A model generated the notes under the pieces. That model was not told the DNA's origin and ran no database searches. It saw only the letters and a program-made list of their open reading frames with translations. The translations under genes were made by a program, and so were the position numbers. From Eledone cirrhosa (lineage: Eukaryota), in NCBI GenBank assembly GCA_964016885.1, contig OZ024752.1, forward strand, positions 25,296,001 to 25,360,000: a stretch of 64,000 bases of DNA. Direction: 5' to 3'. Shown here piece by piece: positions 14,360 to 18,637 of the stretch (the stretch's first letter is position 1; every line of letters starts with the position of its first letter).

Positions 14360-14745
14360 TTATATTAATAAGAGGAATTACAACTTTGTCTGATTTACTC
14401 GTTTCATTTACATTCCTTTAAAATTTATAATGGTATTATAATGAAATAGTATGATAGAATATTAAATTCTAAGTGTTAATTGAATAAGTACTTTCATGCT
14501 TTCGCAATCTTCAGGTTCATAATGGTGACAGTCATGTTTGCAATTTTCAACTGTTAAAATATGCAAACTTGACTGTCACCACATATTATGAACCTGAAGA
14601 TTGCGAAAGCATGAAAGTACTTGTTCAATTAACACTTAGAATTTAATATTCTATCAGACTATTTCATTATAATACCATTATAAATTTAAAAGGATTGTAA
14701 ATAAAACGAGTAAATCAGACAAAGTTGAAATTCCTCTTATTAATA
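14360..14745. mobile_element. Palindromic foldback element (family N) with hammerheads on both strands
   Basis: ~190-bp arms inverted about caactgtt (~14550). A second copy lies at 18241-18482 in the opposite orientation. Confidence 0.8.
14589..14627 (+). ncRNA. Minimal hammerhead (family N); other copies 14481-14519(-), 18322-18360(-), 18430-18468(+)
   Basis: ugaac-CUGAAGA-u ugc gaaa gca u-GAAA-guac-UU-guuca. Confidence 0.85.
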
Positions 14746-15606
14746 TATATATATATATATTATATATATACATATATATATACATATATATATACATATA
14801 TATATATATACATATATATATATATATATACATATATATATATATATATATATATATATATATATATATATATATATATATATATATATATATATATATA
14901 CATATATATATATATATACATATATATATATATATATATATACATATATATATATACATATATATATATACGTATATATATACATATATATATATACATA
15001 TATATATTTATTAAAATAACAGATTAAAGTTTAAGCAAAGAATCGCTGCTTTCACCCTTAACGGGATCTTCTGGAACTAACAAAGTCAATCTGTAAACGC
15101 AGAACTGGATATTTCAAAAAAGTTGCAACCGGAGGAAGACAGGAAGACGATACTTTGGTATGTGGTAATGTTCGCTGGCAAAGAACGGGAAAAAACGAAT
15201 AATACGTCATTAAAAGGAGCGGTGAAAAACAATTACGCTCAAAGACAGAACCACGTTTAGGTATAAAAGAGGTCGTAGACTAATGTTCTCTTAGGTGGTG
15301 CATAGACGTTCTCTGGCAATGAACGAAAAAACGAAGATAATAAGTCATATGTGGAGCGTGGAGAACAATAGCACGCAAAGACAAAACCACGTAAATGGTA
15401 TAGCAGAAGTCGTAGACTAAAATTCTAACTAGGAGACCAAATGAATCTCCGCTACAGAGTTAAAAACAAAGTAAATAAATACAATACAGAAGTAATAGAA
15501 ATAAATAAATACATACACGCAAACAAATACGTACATACACAAGCATACGCAAAACCTTACCATAGGTTTACAACCACGCACATATAAATATGTGTGTGTG
15601 TGTGTA

Positions 15607-16534
15607 TGTTGTATTACCCGTATAGAAAGCCGAATGATACGCTTAATTACATAAGTAAGCATTCCAACCATCCTGCCAGCATAACCAAGAACCTGGTAAG
15701 AAACGTTTCGTTGAGGCTTTCCCGTCTTTCCACCAACGAGCGCATTTTCAACGACCATTCCACTTATTACAATGAAGCTCTTGCTCGAAGTGGATTTGTC
15801 GATAAGGTAGCATATACAGAGTACGAAAATAGACCTAGAAGAAATAGATCCCGTCGCATTTGTTGGTTTAACGCACCATATAACATGGAGGTGGCCACAC
15901 CATTAGCTAAGATCTTTCTTTCCCTTATTACGAAGCATTTTCCCCCTACACATAAATATAGTAAAATATTTAATAGAAATACTATTAAAATTTCTTACTC
16001 TACGACTCCTAACCTTGCACATAACATCACAGCTTCAACTTTAGCTAAACTACCTAGCCGTAGGAACACGTGCAACCCTGTAGGTAGTACTAACTGTAAT
16101 TGTAGGATCGGGCTGATTGCCCCCTATCCGGGAAATGCCTCTCTAGTAACATTGTCTACATATGTAAGGTTGTAACACCCACGTCCTGTAGGGCCTACAT
16201 AGGGTTAACCGCCAATAGTTTCAAGCAGCGTCTTTACATGCATACCCATTCTTTTCGTTACACTCTAAGAAGCAATATGACGTCACTTTCAGCTTATATC
16301 TGCAGTCTAAAAGACAACCACGCCCAATATAAGTTACACTGGGAGATCCTAGCTAGGGCTAGATCGTATAACGGAAATAAAAGACCATGTGACCTCTGGT
16401 CCGCTGAGGCCCTGGAAATACTCTACGCCACAGACCACATCTTAAACAAAAAATCTGAGGCAATTTCGGCTTGTAAACATAAATTGCACAAAACTTTCCT
16501 GTATTACAGCCCCACGTTATACCCTAACGGATAG
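15607..16534 (+). pseudogene. PLE thumb + GIY-YIG remnant, frameshifted near 16107
   Basis: [22 protein letters not shown], then a shifted frame with YIG and CDL; matches 28368-29432. Confidence 0.88.
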
Positions 16535-17458
16535 TACGATCTATGCGTGGATATTTTACGTCCTGATGTGGAAGATAAGTATATGTTTTATTTATTCCTT
16601 TACTTATTTGCATAGGTAAGTATATATTACCTGTATGTTTTGTGAAGGTTGTATACCTTCTCGTACGTATATTTAATTGTTATGGCGTATAATTTTTAAA
16701 TATTCTGGTATTTAGGGTTTGGCTATGTGTATACGGGAGTTTTGCGTCTGCGTGAGTATGCAGGTTCGTACGTATGGTGGGTGTGTGCATATGTGTACTT
16801 CTTGTTTTAGTTGACTTACGTCTCCGAACATTCGTGTATTTATATGTAGGTATGTGTGTGCGCTTGTTATATACGTATTTATTTACTTATATACGTTTAT
16901 ATAATTATTTATTTATTTGTACACTAGCATACACACACACACATATTTATATGTGCGCGATTGTATACCTATGGTAAGGTTTCGCGTATGCTTGTGTATG
17001 TACGTATTTGTTTGCGTGTATGTATTTATTTATTTCTATTACTTCTGTATTGTATTTATTTACTTTGTTTTTAACTCTGTAGCGGAGATTCATTTGGTCT
17101 CCTAGTTAGAATTTTAGTCTACGACTTCTGCTATACCATTTACGTGGTTTTGTCTTTGCGTGCTATTGTTCTCCACGCTCCACATATGACTTATTATCTT
17201 CGTGTTTTCGTTCATTGCCAGAGAACGTCTCTATGCACCACCTAAGAGAACATTAGTCTACGACCTCTTTTATACCTAAACGTGGTTCTGTCTTTGCGCG
17301 TAATTGTTTTTCACCGCTCCTTTTAATGACGTATTATTCGTTTTTTCCCATTCTTTGCCAGCGAACGTTTCCACGAACCAAAGTATCGTCTTCCTGTCTT
17401 CCTCCGGTTGCAACGTTTTTTGAAATATCCAGTTCTGCGTTTACAGATTGACTTTGTT

Positions 17459-17509
17459 AGTTTCAGAAGATCCCGTTAAGGGTGAAAGCAGCGATTCTTT
17501 GCTTAAATT
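17459..17509 (+). ncRNA. Hammerhead-like fold with U4A core (family D); copies 15028-15078(-), 27407-27457(-)
   Basis: aguuu-CAGAAGA-u ccc guuaa ggg u-GAAA-gca[gcgauucuu]ugc-UU-aaauu (aaacu in the other copies). Confidence 0.6.
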
Positions 17510-17847
17510 TTAATCTGTTATTTTAATAAATATTTGCTCTACGGTTCTTATATATTTGATATATATTTATCCTTATCGAGCCCTCTTTGGATTTTAGTCT
17601 TCAATTTTATTATTATTACTATACATATATGTATACATATATATATGTATATATATATATGTATATATATATGTATATATATATATATGTATATATATAT
17701 ATATATATATATGTATATATATATATATATATACATATATATATATATACATATATATATATATATATATACATATATATATATATATACATATATATAT
17801 ACATATATATATATACATATATATATGTATACATATATATATATATA

Positions 17848-18068
17848 CTCTTTTACTCTTTTACCTGTTTCAGCCATCCGGCTGAGGCCATGCTGGGGCA
17901 CCGTCCTTGTTGCTACACATTTTATCTCCAGCCTGTATAGGTTGGCCACTGGTGTAAGAGGGAGTTTGTTGCTGCTGCCCTTAGGTTTCCCTCGTGTCTT
18001 GCTGTGGGCTCATGCGGGATCCTGGATAACAAGGTGTCGAGATGTTTCTTGAAGACATCCACCTCCAC
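17848..18068 (-). mobile_element. 3' end of the CR1-like LINE including its terminal tail
   Basis: 17924-18068 is the reverse complement of ~50341-50485. It continues into ggtgccccagcatggcctcagcc...gctgaaacaggtaaaagagtaaaagag. Confidence 0.85.
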
Positions 18069-18637
18069 TTATAACTTTCTGGTTGGTTGGTTGGTTCCAC
18101 AACCAGATAGTTGTTTATATATTGTCATAGTTCTTTCGTCACACACTCTGTGACTTCTTCAGTGACTGGGGATTCCTTTCTTTGTTTCTGTGCCTCTCCT
18201 TTGTTCTGTCCTACGCCATTTTGCTTCTGTGTGTGTGACACGTTTTATTTACAATCCTTTAAAATTTATAATGGTATTATAATGAAATAGTCTGATAGAA
18301 TATTAGATTCTAAGTGTTAATTGAACAAGTACTTTCATGCTTTCGCAATCTTCAGGTTCATAATATGTGGTGACAGTCAAGTTTGCAATTTTCAACAGTT
18401 GAAAATTGCAAACTTGACTGTCACCATTATGAACCTGAAGATTGCGAAAGCATGAAAGTACTTGTTCAATTAACACTTAGAAGCAAAATGGCGTACGACA
18501 GAACAAAGGAGAGGCACAGAAACAAAGAAAGGAATCCCCAGTCACTGAAGAGGTCACAGAGTGTGTGACGAAAGAACTATGACAATATATAAACAACTAT
18601 CTGGTTGTGGAACCAACCAACCAACCAGAAAGTTATA
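18068..18637. mobile_element. Nested foldback: family O inverted arms enclosing the family N palindrome
   Basis: 18068-18228 is the reverse complement of 18478-18637; inner palindrome at 18241-18482. Confidence 0.8.
18541..18583 (+). ncRNA. Minimal hammerhead (family O); inverted copy 18124-18166(-)
   Basis: guca-CUGAAGA-g gucac..gugac-GAAA-gaac-UA-ugac. Confidence 0.75.

What the first reader, a model, noticed from the sequence alone, without database searches (positions are those of the whole stretch)
14360..18482. A palindrome with hammerheads in both polarities that propagated as a unit
Seen: 14360-14745 and 18241-18482 are the same foldback in opposite orientations. They share the centre (caactgtt) and the asymmetric 4-bp ACAT insertion in one arm, yet have diverged by several substitutions. 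Each has an HHR on each strand about 70 nt apart. A one-off insertion accident should not recur with the same centre. Inference: the hairpin itself is a mobile entity whose transcript from either strand carries a ribozyme and its antisense, reminiscent of ambisense viroid-like RNAs or an siRNA source.
Basis: partly seen in the sequence, partly recalled or inferred. Interest (0 to 1): 0.7.

Follow-up and report, generated by a model that had tools for sequence, protein, structure and literature searches.

The report
Penelope stump palindrome, locally recopied once
The palindrome is real but ordinary: it is two back-to-back end pieces of an abundant repeat that is likely a Penelope-like jumping gene, so a ribozyme motif appears on each strand simply by mirroring, and the second palindrome nearby is likely a one-off partial copy of the first rather than proof of a new mobile, viroid-like hairpin.

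Summary
14361-14747 and 18238-18482 are the same fold-back in opposite orientation, with a one-base centre and a minimal type I hammerhead motif in each arm, 69 nt apart; one of the four motifs is damaged.

Reads from public runs show an abundant repeat family with hallmarks of Penelope-like elements (PLEs): head-to-head arms, a (TA)n target and a 35-bp tail on one arm. Opposite-strand hammerhead pairs in PLEs were described in 2014. The centre recurs at other loci: 30 of 77 and 22 of 52 reads continue across it. It sits on a native ACTGT near-palindrome, a likely joining point for two cDNA ends.

The '4-bp insertion' is really a rare deletion. With a second rare allele, in phase, it shows that the two local palindromes descend from one molecule whose marks are not amplified. 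Copy 2 lacks both element ends and sits between two stumps of another hammerhead family, so it is likely a templated capture. Read-through RNA is predicted to lock the ribozyme in a duplex. No parent ORF, RNA or cleavage was shown. The scan noted the same class repeatedly elsewhere in this genome.

The parts
14326..14360 (-). 35-bp tail present only on the left arm of copy 1 (family A)
   Evidence: Family sequence: X17 depth about 670-815 across it, with majority alleles at 14344 and 14353; 26 X1 contigs instead end at 14361 in TA runs
14361..14552 (-). Copy 1 left arm (family A, sense on minus). Includes the centre base 14552 and lacks the 4 bp after 14522
14481..14519 (-). Hammerhead motif with stem I broken at 14485 (private change)
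   Evidence: 840 of 855 X17 reads have the pairing base
14553..14747 (+). Copy 1 right arm, ends in (TA)n with no tail; carries the rare allele at 14657
14589..14627 (+). Minimal type I hammerhead motif (5-bp stem I, 3-bp stem II with GAAA loop, palindromic AGTACT)
15004..17600 (+). Unrelated intervening Hydra-type PLE: inverted 5'-truncated copy 15004-15603 (minus), RT C-terminus and endonuclease 15588-16534 with a frameshift, 3' UTR with a variant hammerhead core at 17464 and a right-side extension (end approximate)
17850..18068 (-). 3' fragment of a LINE-like element joined to the left family-B stump (left end approximate)
   Evidence: 17923-18068 is 95.9% identical to 50341-50486, downstream of an RVT_1 ORF
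18069..18237 (-). Family B left stump, with its own hammerhead motif (core at 18162)
18238..18396 (-). Copy 2 left arm (family A fragment with no 3' end); hammerhead motif at 18322-18360; rare allele at 18292
18397..18482 (+). Copy 2 centre base and right arm (4-bp deletion; hammerhead motif at 18430-18468); ends at a microhomology with family B
18479..18734 (+). Family B right stump (hammerhead core at 18545); matches the left stump to 18638, then about 95 unmatched bases before (TA)n

Best explanation
Copy 1 is a head-to-head pair of end segments of an abundant hammerhead-motif repeat, likely one insertion of a Penelope-like retrotransposon into a TA repeat, and copy 2 is likely a one-off partial copy of it captured 3.5 kb away between two stumps of a second such family. 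Inferred mechanism: the PLE enzyme nicks both strands and primes a cDNA from each, one from the outer start site (the arm with the tail) and one from the inner. Both run to the same point at the probable front of the element's RNA, where the native sequence lets two cDNA ends (ACTGT on ACTGT, with a central T-T mismatch) anneal. That gives a fixed one-base centre in many independent insertions and a hammerhead motif on each strand as a by-product. Copy 1 then gained a 4-bp deletion in one arm and a substitution in the other. Later, 245 bp spanning its centre were copied in inverted orientation into the junction of a family-B insertion, using a short microhomology at the right junction. A read-through transcript of either strand would form a long duplex that is predicted to silence the ribozyme.
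For: Shown: (1) head-to-head polarity, a (TA)n end and a one-sided 35-bp tail that is family sequence. (2) The family is abundant: 1260 and 2270 X1 contigs were laid (the second stretch includes family B). (3) The centre recurs: 30 of 77 (X17) and 22 of 52 (X18) reads covering 18393 also cover 18397, in both centre polarities (13 of 30 and 15 of 22 read T); 21 X1 contigs carry the opposite polarity, and X1 depth is still 25,533 at 18406-18413. (4) Non-palindromic copies continue past 18396 as TGTAATGAGATGG (17 X1 and 2 X5 contigs), which supplies the ACTGT near-palindrome. (5) The deletion is rare: X17 depth falls from 887 to 21 across it on the deletion-bearing arm, and 627 reads continue with the 4 extra bases; no indel reaches 5% on the full-length arm. 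(6) The 18292/14657 allele shared by copy 2 left and copy 1 right is rare: the other base is read in 278 of 290 (X17), 362 of 375 (X18) and 299,554 of 299,578 depth (X1). (7) Copy 2's left junction is not seen: 0 of 4, 0 of 16 and 0 of 182 depth carry its letter at 18240, and about 40,000 family-B reads per RAD run continue into other sequence. (8) Internal control: the family-C palindrome at 13571-13874 has the same layout, and its homologue (204 identities, 23 mismatches, 10 gap columns) is the tailed 3' end downstream of PLE ORF pieces at 32640-33315. (9) Duplex MFE is -258.5 kcal/mol, with stem I probability about 1e-45 in read-through RNA against 0.93 for the 45-nt motif alone. Literature: a PLE protein cleaves and extends both strands from two RNA start sites that bracket the tail (PMC11167929); inverted truncated copy plus one-sided tail (PMC8557442).
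Against: PLE membership therefore rests on architecture. The motif lacks the G10.1-C11.1 pair and has only a 3-bp stem II. The RNA start is not measured. Twin priming is not distinguished from snap-back by these data. The RAD reads that reach the centre are a biased subset (most end at an AATT at 18387-18390) from about 5-6 start places. Summed contig depth is no copy number. Organism A is not shown to be the window's species (the best run holds 39% of the words). No read or contig spans copy 2 or its junctions. Copy 1 has 4 private changes against 1 in copy 2 over the shared 245 bp, which is uneven though not significant (p=0.375).
Confidence: 0.6

Rival explanations
1. Same PLE stump and same local copy, but the palindrome forms by self-priming (snap-back or template switch) of a single cDNA at the native near-palindrome, not by joining two cDNAs.
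For: PMC3846280 (passages) interprets palindromes at inverted PLE junctions as self-priming. A shorter second arm fits. Copy 1 has T at the centre on the cDNA strand of the tailed arm, as snap-back predicts. Both family-B arms share a rare allele (18224/18483; X1 reads the other base at 677,616 of 678,686), so they came from one template.
Against: A one-base loop cannot close as a priming hairpin (established RNA/DNA folding knowledge). PMC11167929 shows extension of both strands in vitro. One locus cannot show a fixed polarity.
Confidence: 0.2
2. One reading: the whole hairpin is a mobile non-autonomous unit that is re-copied intact, and the recurring centre reflects descent from a few master palindromes.
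For: The centre recurs at many loci. The two local copies share two rare marks in phase, so a palindrome was copied across its centre at least once. PLE ends can carry captured sequence in trans (PMC3846280).
Against: The marks are rare in the family. Copy 2 has neither end, no tail and no TA flank. Most molecules reaching 18393 do not cross the centre (47 of 77 and 30 of 52), and some run into native upstream sequence. Listed centre-spanning contigs have small gaps and other letters (tables 5c and 8). A long duplex RNA is a poor template, and no circular or tandem same-sense unit exists.
Confidence: 0.1
3. Copy 2 is an independent insertion from a rare source subfamily or from a third palindrome elsewhere, not a copy of copy 1.
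For: Copy 2 is closer to the family majority than copy 1 (1 against 4 private changes). The centre recurs by mechanism anyway.
Against: It needs two rare marks in the right arms with the right centre polarity, 3.5 kb from copy 1, in a fragment wholly inside copy 1's range. The imbalance is not significant.
Confidence: 0.05
4. Copy 2 is an assembly or polishing artefact at a hairpin-rich locus.
For: No read or contig in the runs laid spans copy 2's left junction. Hairpins are hard to assemble.
Against: Copy 2 differs from copy 1 at 5 positions plus a small shift, and is closer to the family majority. It has a private allele at 18306 and a plausible microhomology junction. The runs are not shown to be from the assembled individual.
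Confidence: 0.05

Closest known systems
Insertion unit of endonuclease-bearing Penelope-like elements: inverted 5'-truncated pLTR, head to head, with an optional 30-40-bp tail (PMC8557442 Fig. 2 passages; PMC3846280 passages)
   Same: Head-to-head arms, a 35-bp tail on one arm, a (TA)n flank, a hammerhead motif in each arm and a palindrome at the inverted junction.
   Different: No ORF body lies between or beside the arms; the parent ORF was not found; the centre is fixed across many copies.
Minimal hammerheads of metazoan PLEs, including 'dual min-HHRs ~100-700 bp apart in opposite strands' in Schistosoma (PMC4209133, parts 1-2 of 4 read)
   Same: Type I core, 5-bp stem I, palindromic 15.2-16.2 region, opposite-strand pairs, mostly ORF-less copies.
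   Different: Stem II has 3 bp rather than 7-8, there is no G10.1-C11.1 pair, and the pair is closer (69 nt between motifs).
Hydra clade of PLEs, e.g. Hydra-1_Obim (PMC8557442 section 11 and supplement rows)
   Same: Neighbouring ORFs in the window carry RWK/RWR, DKT and CxCX5C motifs; (TA)n targeting; hammerhead near the 3' end.
   Different: Family A itself has no coding sequence to place in a clade, and its motifs are absent from the paper's supplement.
Ambisense viroid-like circular RNAs and ambiviruses (PMC10162972 passages)
   Same: A ribozyme motif on each polarity.
   Different: Those are circular RNAs with no DNA counterpart whose paired ribozymes serve symmetric rolling-circle replication. 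Here the two motifs are one DNA sequence mirrored, and each is predicted to be paired to its own antisense.
Non-LTR retrozymes (bioRxiv 10.64898/2026.07.22.740005, part 1 of 5 read)
   Same: ORF-less, type I hammerhead, related to PLE ends.
   Different: Retrozymes are head-to-tail tandem units; this is a head-to-head pair with no tandem same-sense unit.

Membership tests
EN+ Penelope-like element insertion | Inverted 5'-truncated copy placed head to head | tested here: met
   The hammerhead sense strands point outward from the centre in both copies
EN+ Penelope-like element insertion | 30-40-bp tail at one end only | tested here: met
   14326-14360 is family sequence and absent from the right arm; 26 X1 contigs end at 14361 without it
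EN+ Penelope-like element insertion | Insertion into (TA)n or other microsatellite (Hydra, Neptune, Naiad) | tested here: met
   Copy 1 is flanked by (GA)n/(TA)n and (TA)n; family contigs end in TA runs
EN+ Penelope-like element insertion | Segment is the end repeat of an RT plus GIY-YIG ORF | tested here: inconclusive
   No family-A copy next to an ORF in the window, no genome held, no protein likeness. Met only for the control family C
EN+ Penelope-like element insertion | Target-site duplication | not testable with these tools
   The flanks are microsatellites
PLE minimal hammerhead (Cervera and De la Pena 2014) | CUGANGA and GAAA boxes, NUH site, 4-5-bp stem I | tested here: met
   Met in 3 of 4 arms; the site reads CUU
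PLE minimal hammerhead (Cervera and De la Pena 2014) | Palindromic 15.2-16.2 region for dimer formation | tested here: met
   AGTACT
PLE minimal hammerhead (Cervera and De la Pena 2014) | G10.1-C11.1 pair and long (7-8 bp) stem II | tested here: not met
   U opposite U at the base and a 3-bp stem with a GAAA loop
PLE minimal hammerhead (Cervera and De la Pena 2014) | Self-cleavage | not testable with these tools
   Indirect only: 0 of 14 family-variable positions fall in 38 motif positions out of 140 examined, p=0.009
Hydra clade PLE | RWK, DKT and CxCX5C motifs in the ORF | not testable with these tools
   Family A has no ORF here; the motifs occur in neighbouring unrelated ORFs at 7098, 7904, 21256 and 53652
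Ambisense viroid-like RNA | Circular RNA replicon with no DNA counterpart | tested here: not met
   Abundant chromosomal repeat in DNA runs, inserted in microsatellites
Ambisense viroid-like RNA | A ribozyme able to fold in each polarity of the unit RNA | tested here: not met
   Predicted stem I probability about 1e-45 on both strands of both copies (equilibrium prediction only)
Non-LTR retrozyme | At least two consecutive head-to-tail units with a hammerhead | tested here: not met
   Arms are inverted; the same-sense motifs at 14594 and 18435 are 3841 nt apart in unrelated context
Fold-back or MITE-like mobile unit | Copies share both ends and the palindrome is the usual form | tested here: not met
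   Copy 2 lacks both ends, the tail is one-sided, and a minority of molecules cross the centre

The most novel reading that the evidence does not exclude
Hairpin stumps of one PLE family are re-used as cargo by another: family B's reverse transcriptase jumped onto a read-through RNA of the family-A palindrome and copied it across its centre. Palindromic stumps would then form a cross-family, re-amplifying class of ORF-less elements whose centre acts as a two-way start site, producing ribozyme RNA outward on both strands.
Probability: 0.1. Interest if true: 0.55.

Novelty: new member of a known kind. Interest (0 to 1): 0.25.

Why it matters
As a locus it is ordinary transposon debris, and the class was already noted many times in this genome. 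The useful residue is mechanistic. How PLEs make their inverted copies is unsettled: self-priming was proposed in PMC3846280, and two-strand extension was shown in vitro in PMC11167929. A family with many palindromes folded at one native 5-nt near-palindrome gives a simple computational test, namely centre polarity and arm concordance against the tailed arm. If read-through occurs, such stumps would also be a source of long double-stranded RNA; this is untested.

Tried and rejected
No whole genome is held, so the genome-wide BLAST could not be run; reads were used instead. Rfam gave 0 hits at gathering score, and the weak hits are miRNA-like hairpin matches expected of any palindrome. Two exact-pattern scans of metagenome contigs found 0 matches. 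No RNA holder was listed. Run X14 laid 0 reads, so it is no test; X4 gave one contig; X5 gave 22 contigs and none crossed the centre. Earlier findings by sequence and near this place returned nothing. Family A, family B and intervening-element motifs are absent from the Craig et al. supplement. Translations of the arms show no credible match to 34 PLE-type proteins (best E 0.056). Pfam did not recognise the two intervening ORF pieces (0 of 2); they were placed by BLASTP to a homologue (37-38% identity) and by eye against supplement alignment rows. The self-duplex test of loop 3 used a slice that missed part of the palindrome and is not used. My first guess from memory that the neighbours were Naiad elements was dropped: their endonuclease is C-terminal. 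No downstream promoter element was seen by eye after the centre (consensus recalled, no call). The native sequence before the centre also resembles a 3' splice site (by eye); this was not pursued. Rejected: 'insertion' (it is a deletion), viroid-like replicon, retrozyme, and independent origin of the two local copies.
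Full report
Observation. Copy 1 is a near-perfect palindrome at 14361-14747 with one unpaired base, T14552; its arms align with 180 identities, 7 mismatches and 5 gap columns. Copy 2 is palindromic over 18308-18482 around A18397 (84 of 84 identical apart from a 4-bp gap), and its left arm continues to 18238. Copy 2 matches copy 1 reversed (239 identities, 5 mismatches, 2 gap columns) better than direct (232, 8, 10). A descriptor scan finds the same minimal type I hammerhead motif at 14589-14627(+), 18430-18468(+) and 18322-18360(-). 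The fourth, 14481-14519(-), has the first stem I pair broken at 14485. The motifs are 69 nt apart in both copies. Nine strict motifs with a palindromic loop 3 occur in the window, against 0 in each of 100 shuffles. Rfam does not model them.

Setting. The window is microsatellite-rich eukaryotic DNA with many PLE-type ORF pieces. Several carry Hydra-clade motifs (definitions from PMC8557442 section 11). Earlier scan notes call the host an octopus; I did not test this. A hammerhead motif on each strand is not peculiar to this family. An unrelated palindrome at 13571-13874 (family C; arms 140 of 141; right-side tail) has it, and so does the inverted pair 18069-18237 / 18479-18638 (family B) that encloses copy 2. 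The element between the two copies (15004-17600) is a 5'-truncated PLE with an inverted copy. Family C gives an internal control: its homologue at 34273-34503 is the tailed 3' end downstream of PLE ORF pieces at 32640-33315, with an inverted tailless copy ending near 31155.

The family elsewhere. No genome was held, so I laid public runs on single arms. Of 19 listed runs I used six: X14, X17, X1 and X4, and X1, X17, X18 and X5. X14 laid nothing. In runs labelled organism A the family is very abundant; I cannot give a copy number, nor show that organism A is the window's species. The 35 bp left of the palindrome (14326-14360) are family sequence, and 26 X1 contigs end at 14361 in TA runs, so there are two 3' ends: the PLE tail signature.

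The centre recurs. Of reads covering 18393, 30 of 77 (X17) and 22 of 52 (X18) cover 18397, with both centre polarities (13 of 30 and 15 of 22 read T). In X1, 21 contigs carry the opposite polarity, and summed depth is 179,942 at 18393, 46,283 at 18398-18405 and 25,533 at 18406-18413. The RAD sample is biased, because most reads end at an AATT just before the centre. X5 had no crossing contig. Other copies continue past 18396 as TGTAATGAGATGG (17 X1 contigs, 2 X5 contigs).

The two local copies are one lineage. The 4 bp are present in the family and missing in the left arm of copy 1 and the right arm of copy 2. On the deletion-bearing reference, X17 depth falls from 887 to 21 across the site and 627 reads go on with the extra bases; on the full-length reference no indel reaches 5%. 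A second mark, C at 18292, is shared with copy 1's right arm (14657), while 278 of 290, 362 of 375 and 299,554 of 299,578 read A. Both marks and the centre polarity are in phase. So copy 2 descends from the same palindromic molecule as copy 1, and that haplotype is not amplified in these runs. Copy 2 lies wholly inside copy 1's range (14467-14711), has no element end, and sits at the junction of two family-B stumps. The right junction has a 4-nt exact and 8-of-10 imperfect microhomology; the left one is nearly blunt and was not seen in any read (0 of 4, 0 of 16, 0 of 182 depth at 18240). Private changes over the shared 245 bp are 4 against 1 (p=0.375), compatible with one duplication. I infer a templated capture during a family-B insertion; whether the template was DNA or RNA is open.

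Mechanism of the fixed centre (inferred). The native sequence reads ACTGT on the cDNA strand across the centre. Two cDNA ends stopping there can pair over five bases with a central T-T mismatch, which would give exactly a one-base centre of either polarity. A PLE protein cleaves and extends both strands in vitro from two RNA start sites that bracket the tail (PMC11167929, parts 1-2 of 4 read). That both cDNAs stop here because the RNA starts here is a reading taken from earlier scan notes on other families; I could not test it. The centre base lies in a CAGTT context like an initiator (consensus recalled). Snap-back remains possible (PMC3846280, passages).

Function of the RNA. A read-through transcript folds into one duplex (-258.5 kcal/mol). 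Stem I probability is about 1e-45 on either strand of either copy, against 0.93 for the isolated 45-nt motif and 0.001-0.06 for single arms. Minimal PLE hammerheads did not cleave as monomers and cleaved weakly as dimers (PMC4209133, parts 1-2 of 4). This motif also lacks the G10.1-C11.1 pair. It is nevertheless conserved in the family: 0 of 14 positions variable at 5% or more fall in its 38 of 140 examined positions (p=0.009; I left out the four AATT positions and the two sites where the reference itself is the rare allele).

Comparison. Opposite-strand minimal hammerhead pairs 100-700 bp apart, inverted truncated copies, one-sided tails and junction palindromes are all described for PLEs. 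Viroid-like ambisense RNAs are circular with no DNA counterpart (PMC10162972, passages), and retrozymes are head-to-tail (bioRxiv 10.64898/2026.07.22.740005, part 1 of 5); neither fits. In five searches (listings only, apart from the papers named) I saw no paper describing a fixed fold point from joined cDNA ends in PLEs. Most subscription papers are not in the library, and I did not see the preprint's supplements.

Verdict. A real feature, a new member of a known kind, with one local recopy. Interest 0.25. Odds: PLE stump with two-cDNA joining plus local copy 0.6; the same with snap-back 0.2; mobile hairpin unit 0.1; independent origin 0.05; artefact 0.05.

Noticed in passing
window 13571-13945: Unrelated hammerhead palindrome (family C): arms 140 of 141, about 21-nt spacer, about 70-bp tail on the right arm; its homologue ends a PLE unit at about 30941-34661.
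   Followed up: yes
window 18069-18237 and 18479-18734: Family B: a very abundant repeat (about 70,000 reads per RAD run over 18190-18237) with a hammerhead motif of the CUGAAGAG type; both arms share a rare allele. The left arm is joined to a LINE 3' fragment in the same polarity, possibly a template-switch chimera.
   Followed up: partly
window 17464 (+) and 27452 (-): Two copies of the intervening Hydra-type PLE carry a hammerhead-like core with A instead of U at position 4 (CAGAAGA) and a long self-complementary helix III region; the inverted copy at about 15070 also has it.
   Followed up: no
window 27072-29295: Second copy (94%) of the intervening PLE on the minus strand, without the frameshift seen near 16130, and 5'-truncated into a TA-rich repeat.
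   Followed up: no
window 2231(-), 20270(-), 25070(-), 26805(+), 44902(+), 57569(+): Further minimal hammerhead motifs of at least four other families, several inside complex inverted repeats (19013-20177, 23390-25080, 43677-45153).
   Followed up: no
window 25720-25833: Spacerless 114-bp palindrome (56 of 57) centred on CTGCAG next to (TA)n, with no hammerhead motif found.
   Followed up: no
window 62232-62621: Inverted pair of about 146 bp (96.6%) around a central TA run, with no hammerhead motif found.
   Followed up: no
window 4046-6994 and 10125-13073: 2.95-kb direct repeat at 99.8% flanking a near-complete Hydra-type ORF (7098-9583, one frameshift): a recent PLE partial tandem with a very long end repeat.
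   Followed up: no
window 39775-42209 (-): RT plus GIY-YIG ORF pieces of a different PLE type from the Hydra-like neighbours.
   Followed up: no
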